Source: Nitrospirales bacterium
GTDB taxonomy: Bacteria; Nitrospirota; Nitrospiria; Nitrospirales; UBA8639
Length of the DNA stretch: 64,000 nt
Assembly: GCA_965223765.1 (NCBI GenBank)
Contig: OZ245016.1
Coordinates: 594,654 to 658,653, forward strand
Direction of reading: 5' to 3'
Part shown: in pieces, positions 2,564 to 60,653 of the stretch
How the letters are laid out: each line of letters opens with the position of its first letter
Numbering within the stretch: the first letter of the stretch is position 1
Notes under the pieces: model-generated
Database searches by the model: none
What the model was told of the DNA's origin: nothing
The model's input: only the letters and a program-made list of their open reading frames with translations
Made by a program: the position numbers and the translations under genes

Positions 2564-2593
2564 GCGTTAATACGTTAAGGAAACAGTTAACGC
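2564..2593. promoter_or_regulatory. putative upstream activator sequence for the sigma-54 activator
   Basis: GCGTTAA-N16-TTAACGC inverted repeat containing AACAGTTAAC, about 120 bp upstream of the -24/-12 site. Confidence 0.6.
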
Positions 2594-2709
2594 CTTTGGT
2601 TCACGTTTTCCCATGTTACTGGTGATCTGGGACCATTCCATTCCTCATATTTATATTTAAGTATATGTTTTTATTAAAATTTTAATATCTTATGAACATG
2701 AAGGTACTA

Positions 2710-2725
2710 TGGTATAGATGTTGCT
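2710..2725 (+). promoter_or_regulatory. sigma-54 -24/-12 promoter
   Basis: TGGTATAGATGTTGCT (GG-N10-GC), preceded by an AT-rich tract. Confidence 0.8.
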
Positions 2726-4242: not shown

Positions 4243-4252
4243 GGAGAAGGCT

Positions 4253-5123: not shown

Positions 5124-5642
5124 ATGCATCGTTCAATCCGTTCATATTGTGTCGTTGGCGCATTTAGCCTGTTCGCAATGGGGTGTATGACCACCCCAGC
5201 CATGAGCGACGGGCCTGGCCCAGCTCAAGGGTATGATATTCATGTTCAAGCCCCGCATCTGATGCCGGATGGGACACCTGGAGGACCATTTCATCACTAT
5301 TGCAAAGGAATTAGCGACAAGATTTTGCAATGTCTTCTGTTTGAAACCACAGAAGCCAATGCCCCCTTAGTGGCAATAGAGTACTTCGTCGCCAAAGATC
5401 TTTCACGAAAACTCCCGCTAATCCAATGGCATCGATACTTCCATGACCACAAGCAAGAAATTGCGACTGGTCGAGTGCAGATTCTCGACATTGAAGATCA
5501 AGAAAAAGTCAAAGCCATCGCTGATGCCGCGTCTAAGACCGATGGCGTCATTTATCATCTCTGGCAAAAAGGAAAAGAATTCCCCGATGGGACGGTCACG
5601 TACCCCCAGTCCCTAGGGCATATTTTCAACCAGCCGGAATAA
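5124..5642 (+). CDS. DUF1264/OBAP-like exported protein, possible lipoprotein
   Basis: HHYCK, QCLLF, AIEYFV, HDH motifs; signal peptide ending FAMGC; AAGGAGG RBS. Confidence 0.7.
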   Translation: MHRSIRSYCVVGAFSLFAMGCMTTPAMSDGPGPAQGYDIHVQAPHLMPDGTPGGPFHHYCKGISDKILQCLLFETTEANAPLVAIEYFVAKDLSRKLPLIQWHRYFHDHKQEIATGRVQILDIEDQEKVKAIADAASKTDGVIYHLWQKGKEFPDGTVTYPQSLGHIFNQPE

Positions 5643-5681: not shown

Positions 5682-6179
5682 TTGCCAGAGCATGGGGCCA
5701 TGACACCTCAAAAGTTTGCAAGAACAGTAGAGACTTGGGGACTCGTCCTGAGCATGATGAGCTATAGTCTCGTCGCCGTAGCAGCAGACCCAGCTGTCTT
5801 AACGCCACGAGTGCCGGCGGATCAAATGAAAGAAGTCCGAACCTGGACAAATCCGTTTCCGTCAACGTCGGAGAATATAGAAAAAGGCCGAAAGATTTTT
5901 CACGGAAAAGCATTTTGTGTCACCTGTCATGGACGTGACGGCAAAGGGCTCGGGAACATTCCCGGCTTGCGTGGAAAATTGCCTCGAAACTTTACGGATA
6001 CCACTTGGCAGGCAGCACGCACAGATGGGGAATTATTTTGGATCTTGAAAAATGGAAGCCCAGGAACAGATATGGCCTCCTTCGTGCCGCTGGTTCTCAG
6101 TGAACAGGAAGCTTGGTATGTGTTATTATATGTCAGAGCATTCGGTAACAAGGTATCGCTGGGAGAATCCACACCATGA
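5682..6179 (+). CDS. monoheme cytochrome c (start possibly 5700)
   Basis: signal peptide, CVTCH, distal Met in GSPGTDM. Confidence 0.85.
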   Translation: MPEHGAMTPQKFARTVETWGLVLSMMSYSLVAVAADPAVLTPRVPADQMKEVRTWTNPFPSTSENIEKGRKIFHGKAFCVTCHGRDGKGLGNIPGLRGKLPRNFTDTTWQAARTDGELFWILKNGSPGTDMASFVPLVLSEQEAWYVLLYVRAFGNKVSLGESTP

Positions 6180-6580
6180 CTGGCCTGCCCGCCCTTGCTT
6201 TTTCCAGTTGGCTCGTCTTCTCTTCTGTTCAGATTTCCAACCCAGCTCTTAGTTCTCTGCCACCCGAACCTGATGAAACTAGCCGGATCGATGAAATCTA
6301 CGACCAAGAATCCCGCCTATTTCTGTCTCTCTACTCCTTGAAAGGTAATGGAGAAGTCGACTACATCACGGGGCGTACCGTAGAAGGACATATCCGAAGT
6401 TCCTATGGGAATCCCGTCTACTATCTTCCTGAACACCCGATCTTCTATTGGTGGAACCACACCATGTGGAACGATCCCTTGTTAGATGGCGTCAATGGCA
6501 ATGAATTAGTGTATCAAGAAGATACTGAATTCGATGTGAGCCGCTACAAACCCTGCCTCTTCAATGGACAACCGTGTTAG
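6176..6580 (+). CDS. exported hypothetical protein
   Basis: ATGA overlap with the cytochrome gene, hydrophobic N-terminus. Confidence 0.65.
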   Translation: MTGLPALAFSSWLVFSSVQISNPALSSLPPEPDETSRIDEIYDQESRLFLSLYSLKGNGEVDYITGRTVEGHIRSSYGNPVYYLPEHPIFYWWNHTMWNDPLLDGVNGNELVYQEDTEFDVSRYKPCLFNGQPC

Positions 6581-36766: not shown

Positions 36767-37083
36767 AGGCGTAATTAGCTCAAGCTCACTCGGCAATGGA
36801 CAGCTAATTCATCACAATGATGTATGTTCCATTTGTCACATTGAATGGAATACTCAGTTATTCTCCAGCCACAGAAATCCCATGAAAAAAAGAACAGATT
36901 ATTCCTTCACACATCTGGGCCTCTGCCATAATGAAAAATTTCTATTTCGTTTTTGCATGATTCAACACTGACTTTCAGGCTTTCTCCGAACCTGTCTCAG
37001 GTGATGGCCATATCACTGAAAGTGTCTTAATCAAAAACAAGGGTTCGGTAAAATCAGTTAGCGGAATTGTTAACCCTCACTAC

Positions 37084-37109
37084 TTAACTGTTAACGATTT
37101 TGCGTTAAC
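37084..37109. promoter_or_regulatory. putative upstream activator sequence
   Basis: TTAACTGTTAAC plus a second GCGTTAAC, about 108 bp upstream of the -24/-12 site. Confidence 0.6.
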
Positions 37110-37202
37110 TAGTCTGTTCTATCTCCTCATTGTTTTCGAGTTTTATTCTATAAATCATTGTTTTTAAAGTAAAAATATAGAGATATTCCTCAACATGGTT
37201 TA

Positions 37203-37218
37203 TGGCCCCAGCCTTGCT
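37203..37218 (+). promoter_or_regulatory. sigma-54 -24/-12 promoter
   Basis: TGGCCCCAGCCTTGCT. Confidence 0.75.
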
Positions 37219-37506: not shown

Positions 37507-37536
37507 TTGTTACAAGGAGGTTCGAGGGATGGAGCT

Positions 37537-39207
37537 ATGAAACTACAAAAGATTGTTATCGTTGGGGGAGTGGCTGGCGGAGCCAGTGCAGCCGCGAAGG
37601 CCCGCCGAACGAACGAAACGGCCGACATTACCATTTTTGAAAAAGGCCCCTATGTGTCCTTTGCTAACTGCGGGCTTCCCTATTATGTTGGAGAAACGAT
37701 TCAGGATCGGGATGAACTCTTGCTGCAAACGCCGGAGCGATTTTGGAAACGATTTCGTGTTCAAGTCCACGTCTTACACGAGGTCCTAAAAATTGACCGG
37801 GTGACAAAGCAGGTCAGCGTAAAAAATATCATTTCAGAAGAAGTGACATCCCACCCATATGACAAATTAATTCTGGCTCCGGGAGCTGGAGCAATCGTGC
37901 CAAAAATTCCTGGCATTCAGGCCAAGAATATTTTTTCCGTCAAAACTGTTCCTGACTCGGATAGAATTAAATCGTTTCTTCACGACCACCCCTCCCAGAA
38001 GGCATTAGTCATTGGTGGTGGCTTTATCGGACTGGAAACGGCCGAAGCCTTGGCGAATCGAGGGCTAGCGGTGACCATCGTTGAGAAAGCTCCGCACATT
38101 CTCCCCCCTTTTGATTCAGACATGGCAAGACTTGTTGCCCACCACATAAAAGAGAAAGGGCTGGCCATCATCACCGGCGATGGTATTGCAGGATTTCGTC
38201 AAGATGGGGAGTTCGCCCATGAAGCTGCATTAGAAAGCGGGAAACGGCTCCCCATGGATCTTGCCATCCTCTCAATTGGCGTTCGTCCGGAATTGAAACT
38301 TGCACGAGAGGCCGGCCTGGAAATTGGTGCGTCAGGGGGGATTGCCGTCAATGCACGACAGCAAACATCTGATCCCGATATCTATGCGGCAGGAGATGCT
38401 GTTGAAACCACGCATTTGATCACAGGGAGACAAACACGCATTCCCTTAGCAGGACCAGCCAATAAACAAGGAAGGGTCGCCGGTGCAAATGCCGCGGGAA
38501 GAGATTTACAATTCGATGGAGCGTTAGGTACCGCTATCGTTGAAATAATGGGTATCACCGCTGCCAAAACAGGGTTGACTGGTCAGGAAGCCGAGAGGCA
38601 TGGGTTACAATTTTTCGTCTCAGTCACTCACCCGTTAGATCACGCCGGATACTATCCCGGTGCTGAAGCCCTCCATATGAAATTAGTGGTAGAAGAAGAA
38701 ACCGGAAAACTTCTGGGCGCCCAAATTGTGGGTGAACAGGGAGTGGACAAACGGATTGATGTGCTGGCCACAGCATTACATGCCAAGATGAGAGTCCAGG
38801 ATTTGGAGCAACTGGATTTGGCCTATGCCCCACAATTTAATTCAGCCAAAGGTCCGGTCATCATGGCAGGATTTGTGGCGGCCAATACCCTACGAGGGGA
38901 AGTGACGATCATCACCGGGGAAGAATTGAAAAAAAGACTCGAAGCAAACGCATCGCTTCAATTGTTAGATGTCCGAACTCCAGGTGAATATCAAAAAACC
39001 CACCTACCTCAAGCCCGCCTGGTTCCGGTGGATGATCTCAGAGATCACCTCCAAGATTTGGATCCTACCCAAGAAACCGTCGTCTATTGCCGCGTAGGAT
39101 TACGCGGCTATCTTGCCGCACGTATTCTCCTCCAACATGGCTTTACGAACGTCTCAAATCTTACCGGTGGAATACTCAGTTACTCTCCATCTACAGAAAA
39201 ATCTTGA
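37537..39207 (+). CDS. CoA-disulfide/persulfide reductase with C-terminal rhodanese (CoADR-RHD/Npsr-like)
   Basis: GGVAGG, SFANCGLPY, GGGFIGLE, YAAGDA, DLAYAPQF, rhodanese YCRVGLRG. Confidence 0.9.
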   Translation: MKLQKIVIVGGVAGGASAAAKARRTNETADITIFEKGPYVSFANCGLPYYVGETIQDRDELLLQTPERFWKRFRVQVHVLHEVLKIDRVTKQVSVKNIISEEVTSHPYDKLILAPGAGAIVPKIPGIQAKNIFSVKTVPDSDRIKSFLHDHPSQKALVIGGGFIGLETAEALANRGLAVTIVEKAPHILPPFDSDMARLVAHHIKEKGLAIITGDGIAGFRQDGEFAHEAALESGKRLPMDLAILSIGVRPELKLAREAGLEIGASGGIAVNARQQTSDPDIYAAGDAVETTHLITGRQTRIPLAGPANKQGRVAGANAAGRDLQFDGALGTAIVEIMGITAAKTGLTGQEAERHGLQFFVSVTHPLDHAGYYPGAEALHMKLVVEEETGKLLGAQIVGEQGVDKRIDVLATALHAKMRVQDLEQLDLAYAPQFNSAKGPVIMAGFVAANTLRGEVTIITGEELKKRLEANASLQLLDVRTPGEYQKTHLPQARLVPVDDLRDHLQDLDPTQETVVYCRVGLRGYLAARILLQHGFTNVSNLTGGILSYSPSTEKS

Positions 39208-39350: not shown

Positions 39351-39362
39351 TTAACAGTTAAC
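39351..39362. promoter_or_regulatory. putative upstream activator sequence
   Basis: TTAACAGTTAAC, 109 bp upstream of the -24/-12 site. Confidence 0.6.
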
Positions 39363-39470
39363 ATTCCTTCCTTAACTATTCTCTTCTATCTCCTCATGAT
39401 TTTTCGAGTTTTATTCTATAACTAATTGTTTTCAAAATAAAATATCGGACATATTTTTGAACGTGAATTA

Positions 39471-39486
39471 TGGTACCAGGCTTGCT
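39471..39486 (+). promoter_or_regulatory. sigma-54 -24/-12 promoter
   Basis: TGGTACCAGGCTTGCT. Confidence 0.8.
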
Positions 39487-39532: not shown

Positions 39533-39745
39533 ATGTTGAGAAATGTTGGAGAGACAGAAAAGGGAATTCGACTGGTGTTAGGAGGACTTCTTCTTGTGGC
39601 GACCTTCGTTCTCGATTTGCCCACTTGGGGGACGGCCACATTGGGTGTGATTGGGATTGTGGCCTTAGTGACTGGAGCGATGGGGTACTGCCCGGCTTGG
39701 ACCATTTTTGGAATTAATACATGCCGGACTAAGTCTACAACCTAA
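39533..39745 (+). CDS. DUF2892 (YgaP-like) small membrane protein
   Basis: NVGETEKGIRLVLG, two TMs, TG...YCPAW..FGINTC; GGAGG RBS. Confidence 0.85.
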   Translation: MLRNVGETEKGIRLVLGGLLLVATFVLDLPTWGTATLGVIGIVALVTGAMGYCPAWTIFGINTCRTKSTT

Positions 39746-39760
39746 CCAGATGATTAATTC

Positions 39761-40339
39761 ATGAAACCGACTTACACATCAATTCCAGCTCAAAGAAACA
39801 CGCCAGGAAAAGAACAGACAACCTCCATTAGTGGATGGGCGACTCCACTCCTCATGTCCTTCTTTCTGAGCGTACCCACTGCATTGGCACAGCAGCATGG
39901 GCATCAGCAGATGATGATGCCCAGAGTGCCAGCAGATAAATTAGAAGAAGCCCGAGCCTTGAGGAACCCATTGACAGCTTCACCGAGTATCATTGAACAG
40001 GGGAAATTCATTTATGAAGGCAAAGGCACCTGTATGAATTGCCATGGCGTCAATGGCCGTGGGGATGGGCCAGGCGCGGCCACCCTCAATCCACCGCCAC
40101 GCGTATTTCGCTCCCATGGATTTTGGCGACATCGAACGGAAGGTGAAATCTTTTGGGTCATCAAACACGGGTCCCCTGGAACAGCCATGATTCCTTTTGG
40201 TGGGATACTCACAGATGAAGAAATCTGGACGGTCATGCTGTATGAAAGGAGTTTTGCCAGTGGTTCGCCTGGCGGAAGAGGTCCTCGCCAGGGGCGACGA
40301 GGCGGGGGTGGAATGGGCCACGGTCATCATAGGCGATAA
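39761..40339 (+). CDS. monoheme cytochrome c, paralog of 5682..6179
   Basis: PRVPAD, CMNCH, EGEIFWVIKHGSPGTAM. Confidence 0.85.
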   Translation: MKPTYTSIPAQRNTPGKEQTTSISGWATPLLMSFFLSVPTALAQQHGHQQMMMPRVPADKLEEARALRNPLTASPSIIEQGKFIYEGKGTCMNCHGVNGRGDGPGAATLNPPPRVFRSHGFWRHRTEGEIFWVIKHGSPGTAMIPFGGILTDEEIWTVMLYERSFASGSPGGRGPRQGRRGGGGMGHGHHRR

Positions 40340-40394
40340 CCCTGTTCTCCACTCGAATGTACCATACTGCAGTAGGTCCAAAAGGAAACAGACG

Positions 40395-41093
40395 ATGAAT
40401 TGTCATTATGCAAAACAACAAATTCTACATTGGTTTGGTGCGATTATTGGGGGCGCCATGTTTGTGTTGTGGGGGACAGTTCCTACGTTCTCAGCCGAAA
40501 CCCAGTTACCCGTGGATGGAAAACAACTTGTCCAGGCTCGATGTGTAAGTTGCCATCGTATCAAGGGGTTGCCTTCACCACGATCTGCTAAGAATGCCCC
40601 AGATTTAATTTGGGCAGGGAGTAAATACCAACACACCTGGTTGGTTCGTTGGCTACAAGACCCGAAAGAAAAACTCTATCCTGTTGGCTATGATTTTAAC
40701 TTCAAACGAAAAGGGCCACACATGGCCATCTCCGCTGCCGAAGCAAGAAAGGTGGCAAACTTTCTCGGCACGTTGAAGGATGTACGTGTCACAGAAGGCC
40801 TGATGAAATCAGGGACGCCACAAGAGCTGTCCCGCGGGAAACAACTCTACCGTGAGCACGGATGCCAAAATTGCCATCGGACACCCGCTAACAACAAGCG
40901 AGGCTATACCGGAGGCACCTCAAGTACCTCTCTAGTCAACATGGGCAATCGGCTACAAGGTGATTGGGTCTACCGATTTAATCTTAATCCCGATGATTTT
41001 GTGCCGGAGAGTGGAGCGTATATTCCCAATCCTTTGCTTCCCGATTCCGATATCTATGCGATCACGGCCTATATGATGACCTTTGGGAATTAA
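40395..41093 (+). CDS. diheme cytochrome c
   Basis: CVSCH and CQNCH; signal peptide; AGGA RBS before ATG 40395. Confidence 0.85.
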   Translation: MNCHYAKQQILHWFGAIIGGAMFVLWGTVPTFSAETQLPVDGKQLVQARCVSCHRIKGLPSPRSAKNAPDLIWAGSKYQHTWLVRWLQDPKEKLYPVGYDFNFKRKGPHMAISAAEARKVANFLGTLKDVRVTEGLMKSGTPQELSRGKQLYREHGCQNCHRTPANNKRGYTGGTSSTSLVNMGNRLQGDWVYRFNLNPDDFVPESGAYIPNPLLPDSDIYAITAYMMTFGN

Positions 41094-41142
41094 CCTAGCA
41101 TATTCTGTGTGTGAACATGCCCCAGGAAGGAGAGATCTAGAA

Positions 41143-41514
41143 ATGGCGAAAGGGATTAAGGCGAAGGTTAGGCTACCATTGATCAACCTGATGACCGTGC
41201 TCGGTATATTGTGGATAATCGGGACAGCCCCTGCAGCTGGTAATGGAGATCCTGAAAAAGGCAAAGATCTCTTTCGAGAAAATTGTCAGCATTGCCACGG
41301 ATTTTCCGGGAAGGGGGATGGTGAAATGGCTTCATACCTCACCCCGCCTCCATCTGATCTGGGAAGCCAGACAACGCAAGCCAAGTCTGATGCAGAGTTA
41401 AAGAAGGTTATTCTTAAGGGAAAAGAAGGAACCGCGATGGCTGGGTTTGAAGGGGCCTTAGAAGACTCGCAACTGAATAATCTATTGGCCTACCTTCGAT
41501 CACTCAAGTCGTAA
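41143..41514 (+). CDS. monoheme cytochrome c
   Basis: CQHCH, GTAMAGF. Confidence 0.85.
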   Translation: MAKGIKAKVRLPLINLMTVLGILWIIGTAPAAGNGDPEKGKDLFRENCQHCHGFSGKGDGEMASYLTPPPSDLGSQTTQAKSDAELKKVILKGKEGTAMAGFEGALEDSQLNNLLAYLRSLKS

Positions 41515-41569
41515 GATTGTCAACATTGAGACTTCATTCCTTATAGACCCTGCGAAAGGAAGTCCGACC

Positions 41570-42184
41570 ATGAAAGCTAAGACCACTTCGTTAAAGGCAA
41601 CAGGCGTAGTGGGTTCTGTGTTCATCATGCTGACTGTTGGGATAGCTTTGGCTGACCTCAGTCAACATGAACAGGCTGCGGTAAAAGTCACGGGAACCTT
41701 TCTACAAGAATTGAGTACGGCCATGAAACAGGAAATGGGAAAAGGAGGGCCATTAGAGGCCATTAAGGTTTGTGGAGAATTGGCTCCGGAAATTGCCAAC
41801 CGCTTATCACGAGAAAATGGATGGCGAGTCACGCGTGTGGGGACTCGAGTACGGAACCCCTTGCTTGGAACGCCGGATGCGTGGGAGCAGAAAATCCTTG
41901 GAGAGTTTTCCACACGTGCCGCAAAAGGAGAAGCCCTGAACACAATGACGCACAGCGAAGTGGTATCAGAGCCTGATGGAGAATATTTTCGATTCATGCA
42001 ACCGATTGCTGTTCAGCCCCAATGCCTTCTCTGTCATGGTCCGGCCGAAACCATTCCAGAGTCGATCAAGAAGGTCTTACATACCCACTACCCCTTCGAT
42101 GCGGCCACGGGATATAAAGCCGGAGATCTACGGGGAGCCGTGAGTATCAAGCAGCCACTGACTTCGGCACCAACCGGAGGATAA
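41570..42184 (+). CDS. Tll0287-like (DUF3365) heme c protein
   Basis: AIKVC, RVGTRVRNP, PDAWE, FRFMQPI, CLLCHG, GYKAGDLRGAVS. Confidence 0.85.
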   Translation: MKAKTTSLKATGVVGSVFIMLTVGIALADLSQHEQAAVKVTGTFLQELSTAMKQEMGKGGPLEAIKVCGELAPEIANRLSRENGWRVTRVGTRVRNPLLGTPDAWEQKILGEFSTRAAKGEALNTMTHSEVVSEPDGEYFRFMQPIAVQPQCLLCHGPAETIPESIKKVLHTHYPFDAATGYKAGDLRGAVSIKQPLTSAPTGG

Positions 42185-42216
42185 AGACATTTTCCTTTCA
42201 GACATATATTGAACAA

Positions 42217-42228
42217 TTAACTGTTAAC
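42217..42228. promoter_or_regulatory. putative upstream activator sequence
   Basis: TTAACTGTTAAC, 97 bp upstream of the -24/-12 site. Confidence 0.6.
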
Positions 42229-42324
42229 CCTTAACACCCTCTTTCTTTAAGCGTGCCATTCTCTTTTGAGGTTTGCAAAGTATTGAAGATTAAAAGTTTT
42301 TCTGGTTCTATTTTTTGTACAATT

Positions 42325-42340
42325 TGGTGCTGATTTTGCT
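42325..42340 (+). promoter_or_regulatory. sigma-54 -24/-12 promoter
   Basis: TGGTGCTGATTTTGCT. Confidence 0.75.
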
Positions 42341-42440
42341 TTAACATTTATTGCTAATGTGAACGAGAGAAATATTTGTCAAAAATAATATTGAAATTTT
42401 TTGGCTTTCTGCTTTTCTCAAATAAGGGAGGTTAATCAAG

Positions 42441-43865
42441 ATGAAACAAAAAAGATCACTGAATCAAGAATTTCATAGTCCACTTCTTGGGTTCACGTTG
42501 AGTGTCTTGCTCTTTTTTGTTTTTCCCTTATCTATTTCTGCTAATCCTCAGGAGATAGAGTCCCTGATTAAAGATACCTGTTCAACTTGCCATAAATTTG
42601 AGGGAAAGGAAGAGAGCCGGTTTAATTTGAAAGCCCCGGACTTGATGTGGGGTGGAAGCAAGTACCAACGGGATTGGCTCATTCGTTGGCTCACCGGAAA
42701 AGAACCATTGTTGTATGCGAAAAATTATCGCTGGGATCTCAAGCAGGACCCTGATCCCCATATGACGGTGACTGAAGAAAAAGCCAATTCCATTGCCGAT
42801 TATTTTGAAAAAAATCTCATTGACTCCCGTGTCACTGTTGGGGCCTTTGATCTCTCCAAGGTGACAAAACGCGATGCCGAAGTAGGGGCAGTGATTTATA
42901 AAGCCCATGCCTGCATCGGCTGCCACACCATTCAAGAAAATGGTCAACTGGTCGGCGGGCCACAAAGTGCCAATTTGGCAGATTCCGGAAATCGGTACAA
43001 TGAAGATTGGTTGTTTCGATTTGGGATCAATCCCCAAGACTATGTGCCACATAGTGGAGAGTTTTTGGCTGATGCTACCGAACCTCAGTTACGAAGTGTC
43101 ATCGGCTATTTAATGACGCTTGGCGTGAAAGACTTCAAATTCTATGAACCTTGGACTAGCACTGAGTTTGCTCAACCCAATGTAGATCGGGGATCGGGGA
43201 TCTACAAAGAATATTGCTCGCAATGTCATGGCGCGGAAGGAAAAGGCGATGGACCAGCGGCATCGGGTTTGAGTCCAAAACCTGCCGTGCATGCCAACAT
43301 TCCTTTCGAAAAGCTCCCAATGGAATATCTCTATAATGTGATTAACTTTGGTGGACCAAGTGTGGGTAAATCGGCCAATATGCCTTATTGGGGACTGACC
43401 ATTGGACAACAGGGCGTCGCTGATGTCATTGCCTATCTTAAAGCAACGTTTAAAGGTGGGGCAGAGGTGGCACAAGCTGGAGGCGGAACTGGACCTTCAG
43501 GCGTCTGTCCACAACCACGCAAGACTAAACGTGCTCCCGGCAAATTCCGGAACATGGAAAACCCTCTGGCGCAGAATGCCGAGAACATTAAGGCCGGCGA
43601 GACCTTGTTTCAACAAACTGCAAAACCACTAACCTGCATGAACTGTCATGGCGCACAAGGAGACGGCGAAGGACCGATGGGAGCTGCCTTAGATCCTCGT
43701 CCAAGGAATTTCACCTGTGCGGAAACCATGAAAGATATTTCTGATGGTCAAATGTTCTGGATCATTAAAAACGGATCCGTTGGAACTGGGATGATGGCCT
43801 TTTCTGGAATGCCCGATAATCAAATTTGGCAAGTGATTCAGTATATCCGAACATTAGCCAAGTAA
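42441..43865 (+). CDS. tetraheme cytochrome c (four class-I-like domains)
   Basis: CSTCH, CIGCH, CSQCH, CMNCH; signal peptide. Confidence 0.88.
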   Translation: MKQKRSLNQEFHSPLLGFTLSVLLFFVFPLSISANPQEIESLIKDTCSTCHKFEGKEESRFNLKAPDLMWGGSKYQRDWLIRWLTGKEPLLYAKNYRWDLKQDPDPHMTVTEEKANSIADYFEKNLIDSRVTVGAFDLSKVTKRDAEVGAVIYKAHACIGCHTIQENGQLVGGPQSANLADSGNRYNEDWLFRFGINPQDYVPHSGEFLADATEPQLRSVIGYLMTLGVKDFKFYEPWTSTEFAQPNVDRGSGIYKEYCSQCHGAEGKGDGPAASGLSPKPAVHANIPFEKLPMEYLYNVINFGGPSVGKSANMPYWGLTIGQQGVADVIAYLKATFKGGAEVAQAGGGTGPSGVCPQPRKTKRAPGKFRNMENPLAQNAENIKAGETLFQQTAKPLTCMNCHGAQGDGEGPMGAALDPRPRNFTCAETMKDISDGQMFWIIKNGSVGTGMMAFSGMPDNQIWQVIQYIRTLAK

Positions 43866-43911
43866 GCGTTCGACGAATCATCTGGGCTGCGCCCTAACGA
43901 GGATTCACTGC

Positions 43912-45498
43912 ATGCTGCCACCTTCAACAAAATTCAACACAACTCCTAAAAATAATACACAGGCTCTTGATGAACTTGAAAGGCATCATGCTCTGATCTT
44001 GGAAGCTGCTGGTGAAGGCATTTTTGGCCTGGATCTTGAGGGACGCCATACCTTTGTGAATCCAGCTGCTGCCAAAATGTTGGGGTACGAACCTCAAGAA
44101 CTGGTGGGACAACCAAGCCATTCTCTCTGGCACCACACCAAACCCAATGGGAGTCCATACCCTAAAGAAGATTGCCCGATTTATCGTGCATATAAAGATG
44201 GGCAAGTCCATCAGGGCGACAATGAGGTGTTTTGGAGGAAGGACGGCACGAGTTTTCCTGCTGAATACACTAGTACTCCGATTCGTGACCAAAATGGCCT
44301 CCTAGTAGGGGCCGTTGTGGTCTTTCAAGATATCACCTATCGCCGACAATGCGAGAAAGCTATAGAAAATTTTCGTCGGCAGAATGACTTAATCTTACAA
44401 GCCGCCGGGGAAGGCATTTTCGGACTGGACCTTGAAGGTCGGCATACGTTCGTCAATCCCGCTGCCAGTCGATTGTTGGGCTATGAACCTGGAGAGTTAT
44501 TAGGAAAGCCGAGTCATCGCACCTGGCATCATACAAGGGCTGACGGCTCGCCGTATCCAACAGAAGAATGCCCAATCTATAAAGCCTACAAAGATGGGCA
44601 GGTTCATCAAGGAGAAGAAGAGGTCTTTTGGAAAAAAGATGGATCATCCTTTCCTGCTCAATATACAAGCACCCCCATATGGGATGAAAACCAAAACTTG
44701 GTTGGTGCCGTCGTCACGTTCCAAGATATCACCGAAAAAAAGCGAATGGCTGCTCAATTATTAGAGGAAGCCAAATTAGCGGAAGTCACTCGGGTCCTTG
44801 GCGATATCGGACACGACATCAAAAACATGTTGATGCCGGTCTTGTCAGGAGCCGCTCTGTTAAAAGATGAATTAGAGGAGCAGTTTCCTCAATTGGTTCA
44901 GGCGCAGGGCAAAGGAGTCGAAACCGCTTATACGAATAGTGTGGATCTCTTAACGATGATGGACAGGAATGCGAGACGCATCCAGGTTCGGGTTCGAGAG
45001 ATTGCCGATGCCGTGAAAGGTGTCACGAGTCCCCCGCACTTCCAGAGCTGTGAGATCACCCACATTGTCGAAAGCGTCTACGAAACCCTCCGTGTTTATG
45101 CCGCAGAGAAGAATATTGTACTCTTAACTTCCAAGCTCGACAGGCTTCCTTCGATTGAATGCGACGAGCAGAGACTCTTTAATGCATTATACAATCTCGT
45201 CAACAATGCGATTCCTGAAGTTCCGTCTGGAGGATCAATTACCATTCTCGGGTCTCATCACCAACCATCAGACACGATCGATTTGATCGTCGCAGACACA
45301 GGGCGAGGAATGCCCCCGGAAGTTCGGGACCGGCTGTTTACGTCAGCGGCCATCAGCACAAAAAAAGAAGGAACCGGGCTTGGCACGAAAATCGTCAAGG
45401 ACGTGATTGATATTCACAAAGGCACAATTTGGGTTGACAGTGAACCCGGGAAAGGCACACAGTTCCATCTCCAATTGCCTATTTCGCAGCATGTGTAA
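43912..45498 (+). CDS. cytoplasmic PAS-PAS histidine kinase
   Basis: two near-duplicate PAS/PAC domains, GHDIKNML, LYNLVNNA, DTGRGM, GTGLGT. Confidence 0.9.
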   Translation: MLPPSTKFNTTPKNNTQALDELERHHALILEAAGEGIFGLDLEGRHTFVNPAAAKMLGYEPQELVGQPSHSLWHHTKPNGSPYPKEDCPIYRAYKDGQVHQGDNEVFWRKDGTSFPAEYTSTPIRDQNGLLVGAVVVFQDITYRRQCEKAIENFRRQNDLILQAAGEGIFGLDLEGRHTFVNPAASRLLGYEPGELLGKPSHRTWHHTRADGSPYPTEECPIYKAYKDGQVHQGEEEVFWKKDGSSFPAQYTSTPIWDENQNLVGAVVTFQDITEKKRMAAQLLEEAKLAEVTRVLGDIGHDIKNMLMPVLSGAALLKDELEEQFPQLVQAQGKGVETAYTNSVDLLTMMDRNARRIQVRVREIADAVKGVTSPPHFQSCEITHIVESVYETLRVYAAEKNIVLLTSKLDRLPSIECDEQRLFNALYNLVNNAIPEVPSGGSITILGSHHQPSDTIDLIVADTGRGMPPEVRDRLFTSAAISTKKEGTGLGTKIVKDVIDIHKGTIWVDSEPGKGTQFHLQLPISQHV

Positions 45499-45623
45499 GC
45501 TGGCTATCGTGAAAGGGTGAATAATAATTTTTAGGATTTCGGATCGCATCCTTTCTCTGTTCAAACCACGAAGGTCGCTGAAAAGACCAGATATCCTTTG
45601 CTCGAAGTACTCCCAGTCCCATC

Positions 45624-46871
45624 ATGAGCGATAGTACGTTTGCCTTCTCCAGTGGACTAACCCGTAGACGGTTTCTCCAGACCGCGATAATTTCAGGCGG
45701 GCTAGCTATGCTTGGGAAGAATACAGCTGACGCAACATCGGCCTCCAATATCCAGCTTCCCTTTGCACGAGGGCACCGACCTCTCGTGGCCTTTCCCGAA
45801 AAGCGTCCGTTGATGGTGATGACCACGAGGCCGCCTCAATTAGAGACTCCGTTTTCGGTGTTTAACGATTCTGTATTTACTCCTAACGATGCATTTTTTG
45901 TTCGTTGGCATTTAGCGAATATTCCAACTGAGATTGCCCTCGAGAGCTTTCGCTTGACCGTTCGAGGACGTGTCAGAAATCGGCTTTCGTTGACTCTCAA
46001 AGACTTAAAAGAAAAATTTGAACCCAGAGAAATTGCGGCCGTCTGCCAATGTGCAGGCAATAGTCGAGGGTTTTCTGATCCCCGAGTGGCAGGAGGACAG
46101 TGGGGGCATGGTGCGATGGGGAATGGGCGGTGGAGGGGAGTGCGGTTGCGCGACTTGTTGGAACAAGCCCAATTAGAAAATGATGCCAAACATATTCGGT
46201 TCGACGGCATGGATCGTCCAGTGACCGATGCGACCCCCGATTTTCTGAAGTCACTGCCCCTTGATGCTGCGACTGCGAACCAGGTGCTGGTTGCTTATGC
46301 CATGAATGGCGAGCCTCTCCCCTTCCTCAATGGCTATCCACTCCGCTTGGTTGTTCCGGGATGGTACGCCACGTACTGGGTGAAGATGCTGAATGATATC
46401 GAAGTGCTCAACGAGGAAGACCAGAATTTCTGGATGAATCCCGCATACCGGATTCCTGATAATGCCTGTGGGTGTGTAGACCCCGGTGAGACGGCTAGGA
46501 AACAGATTCCAATATCTACGATGACGGTTCGATCGTTTATCACGAGTCCTCAAGATGGAGATACCGTGTTAGGAAACACTCACGTAAAAATCAAAGGGAT
46601 CGCGTTCGATCAAGGTTATGGCATTGATCGGGTACTAGTATCACTAGATGGCGGAAACAATTGGAAAGCCGCCCAATTAGGAAATGATTATGGAAATTTT
46701 TCTTTCCGTCCATGGGAAATTCCGGTGTTCTTAAAGCCTGGGCAGCAGTATCACCTGCAGTCCCTAGCAATTAATCGCATTGGCGAATCCCAACAATTCC
46801 ACCCCAAATGGAATCCCCAGGGGTATTTACGCAATGCGGTTGAGACCATTCGTATTTCTACACAAGGGTAA
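45624..46871 (+). CDS. sorA: molybdopterin sulfite dehydrogenase subunit (SorA-like, sulfite oxidase family)
   Basis: Tat motif LTRRRFLQ, ETPF, FFVRWH, CQCAGNSR (Moco Cys), NGYPLRLVVPGWYATYWVK. Confidence 0.85.
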   Translation: MSDSTFAFSSGLTRRRFLQTAIISGGLAMLGKNTADATSASNIQLPFARGHRPLVAFPEKRPLMVMTTRPPQLETPFSVFNDSVFTPNDAFFVRWHLANIPTEIALESFRLTVRGRVRNRLSLTLKDLKEKFEPREIAAVCQCAGNSRGFSDPRVAGGQWGHGAMGNGRWRGVRLRDLLEQAQLENDAKHIRFDGMDRPVTDATPDFLKSLPLDAATANQVLVAYAMNGEPLPFLNGYPLRLVVPGWYATYWVKMLNDIEVLNEEDQNFWMNPAYRIPDNACGCVDPGETARKQIPISTMTVRSFITSPQDGDTVLGNTHVKIKGIAFDQGYGIDRVLVSLDGGNNWKAAQLGNDYGNFSFRPWEIPVFLKPGQQYHLQSLAINRIGESQQFHPKWNPQGYLRNAVETIRISTQG

Positions 46872-46878
46872 GCTTCTC

Positions 46879-47238
46879 GTGATACGCCATTGGCTAGTTC
46901 CCTTCCTTATTATATGTACCTTTCTCATGGGTTTATTCCTACCGTCCTGGGCCGAACAACCCGTCAACTTGACAGAGACTTTTGCCTTGCCAGCCGATCC
47001 TTTTTTCTTTCAGCCTGGCAAAGGCCAAGCAATAGCAAATACCTATTGCCTCATTTGCCACTCCGCCGATTACATCTATATGCAACCTAAGCATTCAAAA
47101 ACGAAATGGCAGGCGATCATCACCAAAATGCAACAGGTCTTCGGATGTCCCATCCCCGACGATCAGATTGGATCATTGGCTACTTACCTCTTCGAGCAGA
47201 ATACCGTAGCCATTTCGTCATCATCTTACTCGCGCTAA
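46879..47238 (+). CDS. sorB: monoheme cytochrome c subunit (SorB-like); start could be 46834
   Basis: CLICHSADY..MQP...W...I.KM...FGCPI directly after the SorA-like gene. Confidence 0.75.
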   Translation: MIRHWLVPFLIICTFLMGLFLPSWAEQPVNLTETFALPADPFFFQPGKGQAIANTYCLICHSADYIYMQPKHSKTKWQAIITKMQQVFGCPIPDDQIGSLATYLFEQNTVAISSSSYSR

Positions 47239-59438: not shown

Positions 59439-59684
59439 GTGAGAAACGTCTATTCAGGATTCATTATCAGTCTGGCGATGTTTGGCCTAACGGCCTGTGA
59501 AAGCACCGGAGGAAATGTGGGACTCGGCGTGTTAGGCGGAGCTGCAGGCGCTGCGGGCGGATATGAGTTACACCTCAATCATCAAAAAGACCGGGTTGAA
59601 CAAGACTTTAAGGATAAGAAGATTGATGAGAAAGAGCGAGATATTCGGTTAGATCAGATTAAGCGAGACTCGTTACTTCAATAA
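59439..59684 (+). CDS. small glycine-zipper lipoprotein
   Basis: AGGAGG RBS, GTG start, lipobox LTAC, GLGVLGGAAGAAGGY. Confidence 0.75.
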   Translation: MRNVYSGFIISLAMFGLTACESTGGNVGLGVLGGAAGAAGGYELHLNHQKDRVEQDFKDKKIDEKERDIRLDQIKRDSLLQ

Positions 59685-59864: not shown

Positions 59865-60653
59865 ATGGATCCCTCTTTGCTGCTAGCGTTGCTGTCAGGG
59901 GGATTCGTCGGTCTATTGCTGGGAGCCACGGGTGGAGGTGGCTCACTCATGGCCATTCCTCTTCTCGTGTATGTCGTCGGAGTCCCTGTCCAAAAAGCCA
60001 GTGCGATGTCGTTGATCGTCGTAGGCTATTCCGCGTTGTTCGGGGCATGGCAAGAACATCGACAACAACACGTCCATATTCCTGCCGCCATTGTGTTTAG
60101 CTTAACCGGGGTGATTGGCGCATGGATTGGAGCACAGGGGCATCAACTGGTTTCGGAAACGATTGTCTTATTTTTGTTCGGCAACCTACTCATGTTTATG
60201 AGTGTCTGGACGTTCTGGCAACATCAGAAGGATGAGAGTCAACATACTATGTCGGGATGTGCTAAATATTTTTCTTGGCCCTGTGCATTTAGGGCATCCG
60301 CAATTGGATGGGGGGTTGGATTGCTCACTGGATTTTTCGGAATAGGTGGAGGGTTTCTCATTGTTCCAGCTCTCATGATCCTTTTAGAGTTTCCCATACG
60401 GCTTGCGATAGGTACGTCTTTTTTGATCATCGCCCTCATTTCGATAGGTGGGGTATTCGGACATTTGCATCTAGCCTCGTTGGATTGGCTCTTAACGGGG
60501 TTAGTGTTAATTGGTAGTGTCCTGGGGTTAGTCTTTGGATCGAGAGTAGCACGGTCCATTCCCTCTCATCATTTGAGACGATGCATTGCGATTCTGATTG
60601 GTATCATCGGATTGGGGTTAATCCTCGATAATGGTTGGCATCTCATCTTTTAA
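59865..60653 (+). CDS. TauE/SafE-family sulfite exporter
   Basis: GLLLGATGGGGSLMAIP and second repeat GLLTGFFGIGGGFLIVP, AIGTS. Confidence 0.9.
   Translation: MDPSLLLALLSGGFVGLLLGATGGGGSLMAIPLLVYVVGVPVQKASAMSLIVVGYSALFGAWQEHRQQHVHIPAAIVFSLTGVIGAWIGAQGHQLVSETIVLFLFGNLLMFMSVWTFWQHQKDESQHTMSGCAKYFSWPCAFRASAIGWGVGLLTGFFGIGGGFLIVPALMILLEFPIRLAIGTSFLIIALISIGGVFGHLHLASLDWLLTGLVLIGSVLGLVFGSRVARSIPSHHLRRCIAILIGIIGLGLILDNGWHLIF

What the first reader, a model, noticed from the sequence alone, without database searches (positions are those of the whole stretch)
39533..47238. Ten-heme periplasmic cytochrome block with a Tll0287-like protein and SorAB, but no SQR or Sox
Seen: 10 CxxCH motifs over six genes, ending in SorAB. 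Established: Tll0287 has been linked to sulfide oxidation in cyanobacteria, SorAB oxidises sulfite, dioxygenases make sulfite from persulfides, and TauE exports it. Inference: a persulfide to sulfite to sulfate route feeding cytochromes, possibly an energy-yielding or detoxifying trait in a presumed nitrite oxidiser. The first sulfide-oxidising step is unassigned in this window.
Basis: partly seen in the sequence, partly recalled or inferred. Interest (0 to 1): 0.62.

Follow-up and report, generated by a model that had tools for sequence, protein, structure and literature searches.

The report
Sulfur-stress regulon with sulfite dehydrogenase and cytochromes
A marine nitrite-oxidising Nitrospira carries a co-regulated gene island that most likely clears reactive sulfur and passes the electrons from sulfite to a chain of ten haem groups, which gives a testable reason why the long-annotated sulfite enzyme of these bacteria has never shown a phenotype.

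Summary
Six genes in 39533-47238 carry exactly 10 CxxCH motifs, about 40 times the genome density. They end in a genuine SorAB: SorA scores 449 bits to Starkeya novella SorA and keeps all catalytic residues. One gene is a Tll0287-family haem protein that keeps the Cys/His ligands. The complete genome has no SQR/FCSD, SoxB, SoxY or SoxA/TsdA.

New here: the palindrome TTAACWGTTAAC occurs only three times in 3.79 Mb. Each copy lies 108-120 bp upstream of a sigma-54 promoter. The three promoters head the CoA-persulfide reductase-rhodanese gene, the YgaP-TM/cytochrome/Tll0287 operon and the tetrahaem-kinase-SorAB operon.

In relatives the same GTTAAC sites follow a four-cysteine PAS sigma-54 activator. 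There the persulfide dioxygenase operon, CoA-persulfide reductase, tetrahaem cytochrome, SorAB and TauE form one contiguous locus. In this genome a 30 kb insert and an IS block split it.

Best reading: a reactive-sulfur response whose sulfite end product is oxidised in the periplasm, with electrons passed to cytochromes.

Caveats: SorAB and the missing SQR are already published for marine Nitrospira. The cytochrome module also occurs without SorAB. The Tll0287 link to sulfide is only a proposal. No expression data could be laid.

The parts
1156..2544 (+). Sigma-54 enhancer-binding protein (PAS - AAA+ - HTH_8). It is the probable regulator of the island. The ORF runs from 1102; the conserved start MELDF is at 1156.
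   Evidence: Pfam Sigma54_activat 230 bits, PAS_9, HTH_8. Four invariant Cys in the PAS domain (C-x7-C-x20-C-x3-C) in three genera. Orthologues sit directly upstream of GTTAAC sites plus a sigma-54 promoter in G130 and G037.
2580..2724 (+). Degenerate enhancer site GAAACAGTTAAC (2580-2591) and a sigma-54-like promoter TGGTATAGATGTTGC (2710-2724), in front of the PDO operon.
   Evidence: The orthologous position in G130 carries an exact TTAACAGTTAAC.
2800..4242 (+). CstB-like persulfide dioxygenase fused to two rhodanese domains.
   Evidence: Pfam Lactamase_B plus 2x Rhodanese. Full-length PDB matches 3TP9 (298 bits) and 3R2U (226 bits). PDO-domain matches to ETHE1, BpPRF and the M. xanthus PDO. 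THFHADF, TPGHTPES, GDTLF and C-terminal HCVSGYRS motifs are read.
4217..4837 (+). Single-domain rhodanese.
   Evidence: Pfam Rhodanese 52.7 bits. Syntenic behind PDO in relatives.
5124..5642 (+). DUF1264 protein. It is a likely periplasmic lipoprotein with an invariant His-rich motif.
   Evidence: Pfam DUF1264. FAMGC lipobox and invariant H40, H45, H57, H58, H107, C70, E74, E86 and D108. Orthologues of 68-90% identity in Nitrospirales and Nitrospinaceae.
5700..6179 (+). Monohaem cytochrome c (CVTCH) paired with DUF1264.
   Evidence: Pfam Cytochrom_C. CxxCH. The DUF1264-cyt c pair is conserved.
6176..6577 (+). Conserved 134-aa ORF that marks the left edge of the ancestral island. In relative G031 it directly precedes the CoA-persulfide reductase gene.
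   Evidence: 87% identical to G031 orf134. No Pfam hit.
37069..37217 (+). Enhancer 1 (three GTTAAC sites, exact palindrome TTAACTGTTAAC at 37084-37095) and the sigma-54 promoter TGGCCCCAGCCTTGC (37203-37217).
   Evidence: The palindrome is exact only 3 times in the genome.
37540..39207 (+). CoA-persulfide reductase type CoADR-rhodanese fusion. The ORF opens at 37384; the probable start MKLQK is at 37540.
   Evidence: Pfam Pyr_redox_2, Pyr_redox_dim and Rhodanese. PDB 3ICR 494 bits, 8A56 CoA-persulfide reductase 493 bits, 3NTA 483 bits, all full length. SFANCGLPY and CRVGLRG cysteines are read.
39351..39485 (+). Enhancer 2 (exact TTAACAGTTAAC at 39351-39362) and the sigma-54 promoter TGGTACCAGGCTTGC (39471-39485).
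   Evidence: The whole upstream region is nearly a duplicate of enhancer/promoter 1.
39533..39745 (+). YgaP-like transmembrane protein (DUF2892).
   Evidence: Pfam YgaP-like_TM 65.8 bits. It precedes the tetrahaem gene in relatives.
39761..40339 (+). Cytochrome-579-like monohaem cytochrome c (CMNCH).
   Evidence: NCBIfam cytochrome579 119 bits, below the cut-off of 280. Pfam cytochrome c.
40395..41093 (+). Dihaem cytochrome c (CVSCH, CQNCH). It is a paralogue of the N-terminal half of the tetrahaem protein.
   Evidence: It is 38% and 34% identical to tetrahaem domains 1 and 2.
41143..41514 (+). Monohaem cytochrome c (CQHCH).
   Evidence: In other genera a homologous domain follows SorB or is fused to it.
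41570..42184 (+). Stand-alone Tll0287-family (sCache_heme) c-type haem protein with predicted Cys/His ligation.
   Evidence: Pfam Tll0287-like 88.5 bits. Aligned to PDB 5B82 with Cys68 and CxxCH His145 conserved.
42217..42339 (+). Enhancer 3 (exact TTAACTGTTAAC at 42217-42228) and the sigma-54 promoter TGGTGCTGATTTTGC (42325-42339).
   Evidence: The same arrangement stands before the tetrahaem gene in G126, G134, G031, G043 and Ca. Nitronereus.
42441..43865 (+). Tetrahaem cytochrome c with four class-I domains. It is the conserved neighbour of SorAB.
   Evidence: Four CxxCH. 62-94% identical orthologues across Nitrospirales. It lies within 7.3 kb of SorA in 32 of the 33 genomes where both are on one contig.
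43912..45498 (+). Soluble PAS-PAS histidine kinase.
   Evidence: Pfam PAS x2 and HATPase_c. Orthologues (64-78%) lie in the same neighbourhood. In G031 the kinase follows a REC gene behind a UAS/sigma-54 promoter.
45624..46871 (+). SorA, the molybdenum catalytic subunit of periplasmic sulfite:cytochrome c oxidoreductase.
   Evidence: NCBIfam SorA 591.2 bits against a cut-off of 600. 449 bits to S. novella SorA 2BLF with R55, H57, C104, R109 and Y236 conserved. Tat motif.
46834..47238 (+). SorB, the monohaem cytochrome c subunit (CLICH). It overlaps the 3' end of sorA.
   Evidence: NCBIfam SorB 78.8 bits against a cut-off of 93. Its only PDB hit is S. novella SorB 2BLF_B.
59445..59681 (+). Small conserved lipoprotein-like ORF. 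In relatives it lies between sorB and tauE.
   Evidence: 78% identical to G031 orf81.
59865..60653 (+). TauE/SafE-type sulfite (thiosulfate) exporter. Transposases, toxin-antitoxin-like genes and an RHS fragment have displaced it 12.6 kb from sorB.
   Evidence: Pfam TauE 166.7 bits. The 87-88% identical orthologue lies 0.7 kb after sorB in G031 and G043. IS genes at 47371-53869.

Best explanation
The ten-haem block is the periplasmic electron-accepting end of a sigma-54-controlled reactive-sulfur response island of a lineage-IV (marine) Nitrospira.

Proposed mechanism, step by step:
1. A four-cysteine PAS enhancer-binding protein (1156-2544) binds GTTAAC palindromes about 110 bp upstream of -24/-12 promoters. 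It switches on four units: (a) CstB-like persulfide dioxygenase-rhodanese, rhodanese, DUF1264 and cyt c; (b) CoA-persulfide reductase-rhodanese; (c) YgaP-TM, three cytochromes c and the Cys/His Tll0287-like haem protein; (d) tetrahaem cytochrome, PAS kinase and SorAB. The shared motif and promoters are shown. Binding by this particular protein is inferred from conserved adjacency.
2. In the cytoplasm, low-molecular-weight persulfides are oxidised to sulfite or thiosulfate by the dioxygenase, or reduced by the CoA-persulfide reductase. The persulfides would come from polysulfide, sulfur or sulfide chemistry, from thiosulfate via rhodanese, or from cysteine turnover. This step is inferred from homology.
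3. TauE exports the oxyanion (inferred).
4. Tat-exported SorA oxidises sulfite to sulfate and reduces SorB. Homology is strong and all catalytic residues are present.
5. SorB hands electrons to the tetrahaem cytochrome and its split paralogues, and on to the terminal oxidase. They enter at the same cytochrome c level as electrons from nitrite. This is inferred from operon structure and conserved linkage.

The primary role is probably detoxification or homeostasis with an energy bonus. No enzymatic sulfide-oxidising first step exists in the genome, so sulfane sulfur, thiosulfate or sulfite is the likely input, not free sulfide.
For: - Ten CxxCH motifs in six secreted proteins.
- SorA is about 60% identical to the characterised S. 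novella enzyme, with the Mo-Cys and R55/H57/R109/Y236 conserved. SorB matches only S. novella SorB.
- TTAACWGTTAAC is exact only 3 times in 3.79 Mb. All three copies lie in this cluster, each 108-120 bp upstream of a TGG-N9-TTGC promoter. rpoN and 20 enhancer-binding proteins are present.
- GTTAAC clusters plus a sigma-54 promoter recur before the tetrahaem or PDO operons in four genera. They lie directly downstream of the orthologous activator gene in G130 and G037.
- The locus EBP-PDO-Rhd-DUF1264-cyt c-CoAPR-(YgaP-TM)-tetrahaem-SorA-SorB-TauE is contiguous in G130, G031 and G043. The breakpoints of the two insertions in this genome are mapped by orf134 and orf81.
- SorA lies within 7.3 kb of the tetrahaem gene in 32 of 33 genomes. 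The PDO orthologue lies within 17 kb in 23 genomes.
- PDO matches the CstB-type structures 3R2U and 3TP9. CoADR-Rhd matches CoA-persulfide reductase 8A56.
- No terminator or sigma-70 promoter stands out between the tetrahaem gene and sorB.
- The FisR sigma-54 pdo-sqr-tauE regulon is an experimentally shown precedent (PMC7315123).
Against: - There are no expression or biochemical data for this organism.
- In the N. marina proteome SorA was found at low level without added sulfur, and SorB was not detected.
- Orthologues of the tetrahaem and Tll0287-like proteins persist in genomes without SorAB or PDO: the small-genome genus g2 scored 0/32 for both. In Nitrospira sensu stricto they lie beside cytochrome c peroxidase. 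The cytochromes are therefore not dedicated to sulfite.
- The activator's four-Cys PAS domain could hold an Fe-S cluster and sense O2 or redox state rather than sulfur.
- The enhancer site before the PDO operon in this genome is degenerate.
- No enhancer or sigma-54 promoter was found before sorA itself or before tauE.
- CstB-type enzymes make thiosulfate, and the genome has no known periplasmic oxidase for it.
- SorA and SorB score just below NCBIfam's equivalog cut-offs.
Confidence: 0.6

Rival explanations
1. The island is a true lithotrophic pathway. The organism respires sulfite or thiosulfate (or sulfane sulfur) as an alternative electron donor for growth. The many cytochromes distribute electrons to the oxidase and, by reverse flow, to the quinone pool.
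For: - High haem investment: 8% of all CxxCH motifs of the genome lie here.
- The tetrahaem cytochrome is under strong purifying selection, at 62-94% identity across the order.
- In other Nitrospira the same cytochrome lies with a dedicated Rieske/cytochrome b complex, a TsdA/SoxA-like cytochrome, a SUOX-like enzyme and DsrE.
- Published authors have raised sulfite as an energy source for these bacteria (PMC8115632, PMC10839748).
Against: - The regulon includes an NAD(P)H-consuming CoA-persulfide reductase, and its architecture is that of the FisR and CstR detoxification regulons.
- The genome has no SQR, FCC, Sox or TsdA, and this window holds no dedicated bc complex.
- No phenotype has been reported despite cultures (PMC10579370).
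- Only two electrons per sulfite enter, and at cytochrome c level.
Confidence: 0.2
2. The cytochromes and the Tll0287-like protein are a general periplasmic electron hub or redox-stress module of Nitrospirales. The regulon responds to O2 or redox state through an Fe-S PAS sensor. SorAB is only one of several client enzymes, and sulfur is not the signal.
For: - The module is present without SorAB or PDO in genus g2, where it keeps the activator, YgaP-TM, DUF1264 and cyt c.
- In Nitrospira sensu stricto it lies next to cytochrome c peroxidase, catalase, hemerythrin and Spy-like genes.
- Four-Cys PAS domains are known O2-sensing Fe-S binders (NreB; from my own knowledge).
- SorA rose about twofold at low O2 in N. 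marina, though not significantly after correction.
- Stand-alone sCache_heme proteins show generic redox properties.
Against: - Two of the four enhancer-driven units encode enzymes whose only known substrates are persulfides: the CstB-like PDO and the CoA-persulfide reductase.
- Rhodanese domains occur five times in the regulon.
- The gene set PDO/CoAPR/SorAB/TauE is linked in more than 20 genomes.
Confidence: 0.2
3. The molybdenum enzyme prefers a substrate other than sulfite, so the block is unrelated to sulfur oxidation.
For: - It scores 591 bits, just under the SorA equivalog cut-off of 600.
- The genome has three other SUOX-family genes of unknown substrate.
Against: - 449 bits over the full length to the crystallised S. 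novella SorA, with every substrate-binding residue conserved.
- A cognate SorB is translationally coupled to it.
Confidence: 0.05

Closest known systems
SorAB sulfite:cytochrome c oxidoreductase of Starkeya novella (PDB 2BLF)
   Same: - Heterodimer genes in the same order.
- SorA is about 60% identical, with Tat export.
- The Mo-Cys and the active-site Arg, His and Tyr are conserved.
- SorB is a small monohaem c with the C..CHS.DYI..QP motif.
   Different: - Here the genes sit in an operon behind a tetrahaem cytochrome and a PAS kinase.
- The operon is under a sigma-54 enhancer, in a nitrite oxidiser.
- NCBIfam scores are just under the equivalog cut-offs.
- The natural electron acceptor is probably the tetrahaem protein rather than a c550.
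FisR-controlled sigma-54 sulfide/persulfide detoxification operon (pdo-sqr-tauE) of Cupriavidus pinatubonensis and Acinetobacter baumannii (PMC7315123)
   Same: - A sigma-54 activator stands next to a persulfide dioxygenase operon.
- TauE-type exporter.
- The logic is that of a sulfane-sulfur response.
   Different: - No SQR anywhere in the genome.
- The sensor domain is a four-Cys PAS.
- The regulon is extended by CoA-persulfide reductase, a periplasmic SorAB and nine further haems.
- The product sulfite is oxidised rather than only exported.
CstR-regulated cst operon of Staphylococcus aureus (CstA, CstB, SQR) and the CoAPR/rhodanese operon of Enterococcus faecalis
   Same: - CstB-type PDO-rhodanese fusion with a full-length match to 3R2U (to my knowledge the S. 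aureus CstB).
- CoADR-RHD matches CoA-persulfide reductase 8A56.
   Different: - An activator with sigma-54 replaces the CsoR-like repressor.
- Gram-negative periplasmic branch.
- No SQR.
Tll0287 of Thermosynechococcus elongatus (PDB 5B82) / stand-alone sCache_heme proteins
   Same: - Pfam family.
- CxxCH in a Cache/PAS-like fold.
- The distal Cys ligand is conserved.
- Stand-alone secreted protein.
   Different: - Only about 25-30% identical.
- Encoded inside a cytochrome c operon of a sulfur-linked regulon, not with photosystem II.
- Function is unknown in both.
TsdBA thiosulfate dehydrogenase fusion (tetrahaem, PDB 5LO9)
   Same: Four class-I cytochrome c domains in one periplasmic protein, linked to sulfur oxidation.
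   Different: - Only a low-quality structural alignment (TM 0.17).
- No Cys-ligated catalytic haem is evident.
- No PF21342 domain.

Membership tests
SorA-type sulfite dehydrogenase (SUOX fold) | Molybdopterin-binding domain plus dimerisation domain | tested here: met
   PF00174 187.9 bits and PF03404 36.8 bits.
SorA-type sulfite dehydrogenase (SUOX fold) | Mo-ligand Cys104 and substrate pocket Arg55, His57, Arg109, Tyr236 (S. novella numbering) | tested here: met
   All are conserved in the alignment to 2BLF_A.
SorA-type sulfite dehydrogenase (SUOX fold) | NCBIfam equivalog score at or above the cut-off | tested here: inconclusive
   591.2 bits against a cut-off of 600. The next model, SorT, scores 187.
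SorA-type sulfite dehydrogenase (SUOX fold) | Sulfite-dependent cytochrome c reduction | not testable with these tools
   Needs an enzyme assay.
SorB cytochrome subunit | Small monohaem c encoded directly after sorA and similar to S. novella SorB | tested here: met
   CLICH motif. It overlaps sorA. Its only PDB hit is 2BLF_B at E 8e-7. NCBIfam SorB scores 78.8 against a cut-off of 93.
Tll0287 / sCache_heme family | PF11845 domain with a strictly conserved CxxCH | tested here: met
   88.5 bits against a cut-off of 24.1. CLLCH aligned to CLACH of 5B82.
Tll0287 / sCache_heme family | Distal Cys ligand of the stand-alone (cluster 1) class | tested here: met
   The Cys aligned with Cys68 of 5B82 is present. 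The ligation itself has not been measured.
FisR-type sigma-54 persulfide regulon | Sigma-54 activator with AAA+ and HTH_8 domains next to a pdo operon that has a -24/-12 promoter | tested here: met
FisR-type sigma-54 persulfide regulon | SQR among the regulated genes | tested here: not met
   No SQR or FCSD in the genome.
FisR-type sigma-54 persulfide regulon | Regulatory domain homologous to the FisR sensor domain; induction by sulfide or polysulfide | not tested
   The sensor here is a four-Cys PAS domain. No FisR sequence was compared and no expression data were available.
CstB-type persulfide dioxygenase-sulfurtransferase | MBL-fold PDO domain plus rhodanese domains with a C-terminal catalytic Cys | tested here: met
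CoA-persulfide reductase (CoADR-RHD) | CoADR domain with the redox Cys, fused to a rhodanese with its catalytic Cys | tested here: met
   Full-length matches to 3ICR, 8A56 and 3NTA. SFANCGLPY and CRVGLRG motifs. The NCBIfam CoADR model scores 474 against a cut-off of 579.
Sox thiosulfate-oxidising system / TsdA / FCC | SoxB, SoxY, SoxA/TsdA haem domain, FccB flavin domain | tested here: not met
Cytochrome 579 (Leptospirillum) | NCBIfam equivalog score | tested here: not met
   119 bits against a cut-off of 280. It is a relative only.

The most novel reading that the evidence does not exclude
A core gene set is shared by marine nitrite oxidisers of two phyla, Nitrospirales and Nitrospinaceae. 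It comprises a sigma-54 activator, CoA-persulfide reductase-rhodanese, the His-rich DUF1264 metalloprotein with its cytochrome c, and the tetrahaem cytochrome. Nitrospirales add the YgaP-TM protein, and this genome adds the Cys/His Tll0287-like haem. This set could be an undescribed periplasmic sulfide or sulfane-sulfur:cytochrome c oxidising system. It would stand in for SQR, FCC and Sox, with DUF1264 or the Tll0287-like haem as the missing first catalyst. These bacteria would then have a hidden sulfur-based energy metabolism.
Probability: 0.12. Interest if true: 0.8.

Novelty: new variant of a known kind. Interest (0 to 1): 0.5.

Why it matters
SorAB has been annotated in marine Nitrospira and Nitrospina genomes since 2013. 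Papers still state that no phenotype has been linked to it (PMC10579370, PMC10839748).

This analysis places SorAB and its cytochromes in one sigma-54 regulon with persulfide-metabolising enzymes. That predicts a concrete inducer class: sulfane sulfur or thiosulfate, rather than sulfite alone. It also predicts a named regulator and a 12-bp operator, so the question can be tested directly in existing cultures.

If the reading is right, marine nitrite oxidisers at oxic-sulfidic interfaces would clear reactive sulfur and recover electrons from it. This bears on their sulfide tolerance and on nitrogen-sulfur coupling in sediments, sponges and oxygen-minimum zones.

Tried and rejected
- Looked for the missing sulfide-oxidising step genome-wide. 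Pyr_redox_2 enumeration, FCSD flavin and central domains, SoxB, SoxY and SoxA/TsdA all found nothing. The island of the N. marina-like relative G116 also holds no SQR; the gap there is a pyruvate kinase. The second PDO-Rhd paralogue locus has no sulfur oxidase either.
- An AlphaFold model of the tetrahaem protein had moderate confidence (pLDDT 66.6). The Foldseek PDB search gave only generic class-I cytochrome c domain hits, and TsdBA aligned at TM 0.17. No functional assignment followed.
- The AlphaFold model of DUF1264 had low confidence (pLDDT 52.5), so it was not searched.
- Scans for sigma-70 promoters and intrinsic terminators across 36.8-47.5 kb gave counts below the shuffled expectation, hence no internal unit boundaries.
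- Looked for an enhancer or sigma-54 promoter before sorA and before tauE. None was found.
- Rejected the idea that the Tll0287-like protein is the sensor of the adjacent kinase. The kinase has no membrane segment, and the haem protein is secreted with no output domain.
- Rejected the statement 'Tll0287 established in sulfide oxidation'. It is a proposal only.

Full report
**What is there**

The span 39533-47238 holds nine genes on the + strand:
- a YgaP-like transmembrane protein (39533-39745)
- a cytochrome-579-like monohaem c (39761-40339)
- a dihaem c (40395-41093)
- a monohaem c (41143-41514)
- a Tll0287-family haem protein (41570-42184)
- a tetrahaem c (42441-43865)
- a soluble PAS-PAS histidine kinase (43912-45498)
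- SorA (45624-46871)
- SorB (46834-47238)

A script counted 1+2+1+1+4+1 = 10 CxxCH motifs. The genome has 122 such motifs in open frames of 90 aa or more. This 7.7 kb stretch ties for the densest, against about 0.25 expected. All six haem proteins start with a signal or anchor sequence, and SorA has a twin-arginine motif.

**The enzymes**

SorA scores 591 bits on NCBIfam's SorA model, against a cut-off of 600. It scores 449 bits over its full length to the crystallised Starkeya novella SorA. The Mo-ligand Cys104 and Arg55, His57, Arg109 and Tyr236 are all conserved. SorB's only match among solved structures is S. novella SorB.

The Tll0287-like protein aligns to PDB 5B82 with both axial ligands kept, Cys68 and the His of CxxCH.

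Directly upstream of the given span lies a CoADR-rhodanese fusion (37540-39207). It matches CoA-persulfide reductase 8A56, B. anthracis CoADR-RHD 3ICR and Shewanella Npsr 3NTA at about 490 bits, full length.

Elsewhere in the window are a CstB-like persulfide dioxygenase with two rhodanese domains (2800-4242), a rhodanese, a DUF1264 protein and a cytochrome c. All follow a PAS/AAA+/HTH_8 sigma-54 activator (1156-2544). A TauE exporter lies at 59865-60653.

**Genome-wide sulfur inventory**

The genome is one 3.79 Mb contig, 98% complete. It has an NxrB-like gene and rpoN. Its closest protein relatives are named Nitrospirales, Ca. Nitrospira neomarina and Ca. Nitronereus thalassa.

It has no FCSD flavin or central domain, no SoxB above noise, no SoxY and no SoxA/TsdA haem domain. 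None of its 17 Pyr_redox_2 proteins looks like an SQR. A second PDO-rhodanese paralogue (52% identical), with its own YgaP-TM gene, lies at 1.946 Mb without any sulfide oxidase nearby.

**Regulation**

I followed a lead from another first-stage note on this window (e1-5273219). The palindrome TTAACWGTTAAC occurs exactly three times in the whole genome, at window 37084, 39351 and 42217. About 0.5 copies are expected by chance.

Each copy lies 108-120 bp upstream of a TGG-N9-TTGC sigma-54-type promoter that faces a gene start: the CoA-persulfide reductase, the YgaP-TM/cytochrome operon and the tetrahaem operon. The first two upstream regions are near-duplicates of each other. A degenerate copy (GAAACAGTTAAC) and a promoter precede the PDO operon.

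In relatives the same architecture recurs:
- before YgaP-TM-tetrahaem-SorAB (G031, G043)
- before the tetrahaem gene (G126, G134, Ca. Nitronereus)
- before the kinase-dihaem-CoAPR-tetrahaem-SorAB unit (G064)
- as an exact palindrome between the activator gene and PDO (G130)
- as three GTTAAC sites plus a perfect TGGCAC-N5-TTGCT right after the activator gene in a small-genome genus (G037)

No such sites occur in the loci of the other family, which also lacks the orthologous activator. The activator's PAS domain carries four invariant cysteines. Between the tetrahaem gene and sorB there is no terminator-like or sigma-70-like signal above shuffled expectation. SorAB is therefore probably read from the third promoter.

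**Comparative genomics**

The tetrahaem protein has 62-94% identical orthologues in most Nitrospirales sampled.

In the closest relatives one contiguous locus reads PDO-Rhd, Rhd, DUF1264, cyt c, (REC, kinase), orf134, CoAPR, YgaP-TM, tetrahaem, SorA, SorB, orf81, TauE. G130 has activator-to-TauE within 13 kb.

In this genome orf134 sits at 6176-6577 and orf81 at 59445-59681. The island has therefore been split twice. One split is a roughly 30 kb insert; the glycan operon is described in note e1-5273211, and searches give its Pfam content. The other is a 12 kb block of transposases, toxin-antitoxin-like genes and an RHS fragment with raised G+C.

Across the family, SorA orthologues occur in 44 of 90 genomes: 28/31 in the own genus and 0/32 in the small-genome genus g2. 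In 32 of the 33 genomes with both genes on one contig, sorA lies within 7.3 kb of the tetrahaem gene. PDO orthologues show the same 0/32 gap in genus g2 and lie within 17 kb of this pair in 23 genomes.

The four extra cytochrome genes of this window (cyt579-like, dihaem, monohaem, Tll0287-like) are a variable addition. G130 has the last three in a second locus, with paralogous CoAPR and tetrahaem genes. They are domain-wise paralogues of the tetrahaem protein: the dihaem matches domains 1-2, and the cyt579-like and monohaem proteins match domains 3-4. This agrees with note e1-5273222.

**Limits of the sulfur reading**

The cytochrome module outlives SorAB. Genus g2 keeps activator, YgaP-TM, DUF1264, cyt c and tetrahaem without PDO or SorAB.

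In Nitrospira sensu stricto the tetrahaem gene has two kinds of neighbour. One is a TsdA/SoxA-like cytochrome, OsmC, a 36-39% SorA-like enzyme, DsrE and a Rieske/cytochrome b pair. The other, together with the Tll0287-like gene, is a cytochrome c peroxidase.

A Nitrospinaceae contig carries cyt c, a tetrahaem protein, cyt c, CoADR-Rhd, DUF1264 and cyt c, plus a GAF-type sigma-54 activator and a REC/kinase pair. The cytochromes therefore look like a periplasmic electron hub with changing client enzymes. In this lineage the clients and the co-regulated enzymes are sulfur enzymes.

**Literature**

SorAB in lineage-IV Nitrospirales and Nitrospinia, and the lack of SQR in N. marina, are published. 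The papers state explicitly that no phenotype or physiological evidence exists (PMC8115632, PMC10579370, PMC12342949, PMC10839748).

In the N. marina proteome SorA was detected at low counts and SorB was not detected.

Tll0287 is a Cys/His haem protein whose proposed roles are redox sensing or a subunit of an H2S-oxidising system. The 2026 family study found redox-like properties for a stand-alone member and no conserved gene association.

The nearest experimentally shown regulatory precedent is FisR (sigma-54) driving pdo-sqr-tauE (PMC7315123). I found no paper linking persulfide dioxygenase, CoA-persulfide reductase or a sigma-54 regulon to SorAB in nitrite oxidisers, within the limits of the held library.

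**Verdict**

The block is real. It is most likely the periplasmic, electron-harvesting end of a sigma-54-controlled reactive-sulfur response (confidence about 0.6).

- Shown: gene content, catalytic residues, the unique enhancer motif with its promoters, conserved linkage, and absence of known sulfide and thiosulfate oxidases.
- Inferred: which protein binds the motif, the inducer, the flow persulfide to sulfite (or thiosulfate) to TauE to SorAB to cytochromes, and the balance between detoxification and energy gain.

The pieces are all of known kinds, and the SorAB annotation is not new. What is new is the regulon, its conserved neighbourhood and the tetrahaem partner. I class it as a new variant of a known kind, of moderate interest.

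Noticed in passing
window 5124-5642 (and L079 8001-8516): DUF1264 is a secreted, probably lipid-anchored protein with an invariant His/Cys/Glu-rich motif (IHVQAPH...HHYCK...QCLLFE...FHDH...YHLW). It is always followed by a cytochrome c. It is 68-90% conserved between Nitrospirales and Nitrospinaceae nitrite oxidisers and sits in the PDO operon here. A 2026 preprint predicts a binuclear metal site and a STRING link to 'GloB', which may in fact be a persulfide dioxygenase. It is a candidate new periplasmic redox enzyme.
   Followed up: partly
window 6.6-37.0 kb and 47.3-59.4 kb: Two insertions split an island that is contiguous in relatives. One is a roughly 30 kb block holding a glycan operon and two-component genes. 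The other is a 12 kb block of four transposase genes, toxin-antitoxin-like ORFs, a HEAT protein, an RHS fragment and a LuxR gene, with G+C raised to 0.54 at 48-54 kb.
   Followed up: partly
window 43912-45498: Both PAS domains of the kinase repeat the motif HHT.(P/A).G.PYP.E.CPIY.AYKDGQVHQG. The activator's PAS domain has a related PYPWGIC stretch. In G031 the orthologous kinase follows a single-domain response regulator behind its own GTTAAC/sigma-54 promoter. No such REC gene lies beside the kinase in this window.
   Followed up: partly
window 42441-43865: Besides the four CxxCH motifs, two further cysteines (C356 in GVCPQPRK and C426 in NFTCGE) are invariant in 29 orthologues. They may form a disulfide or have some other role in the fourth domain.
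   Followed up: no
genome C1 about 3,631,364 (outside the window): A second locus also holds 10 CxxCH motifs within 7.7 kb, equal in density to this one. It was not examined.
   Followed up: no
genome C1 1946081-1947903 (outside the window): A second PDO-2xrhodanese paralogue (52% identical) with its own YgaP-TM paralogue lies among universal-stress, CBS and response-regulator genes.
   Followed up: partly
window 59690-59760 and L058 12545-12600: A perfect hairpin between orf81 and tauE (GAAGAAAAGAG...CTCTTTTCTTC) is replaced in the relative by a different perfect hairpin at the same place. It is a conserved structure, perhaps a terminator or attenuator before tauE.
   Followed up: no
window 37203-37540: The sigma-54 promoter of the CoA-persulfide reductase lies about 320 nt before the likely start codon (MKLQK). 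That is much further than in the other two units. The leader is either long, or the protein starts at the upstream GTG (37384).
   Followed up: no
window 36095-36766: A PAS protein with a C-terminal CxxC...CxxC zinc-ribbon-like tail lies just upstream of enhancer 1. It has no counterpart in the 20 related loci.
   Followed up: partly
L024-L026, L070, L073-L076 (Nitrospira sensu stricto loci): The tetrahaem orthologue lies with a TsdA/SoxA-like dihaem cytochrome, two OsmC genes, a 36-39% SorA-like SUOX enzyme with its own cytochrome, DsrE and, in one set, a Rieske/cytochrome b pair. This is a possible thiosulfate- or sulfite-linked module. The sulphur sections of the Nitrospirales papers I read do not mention it.
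   Followed up: partly
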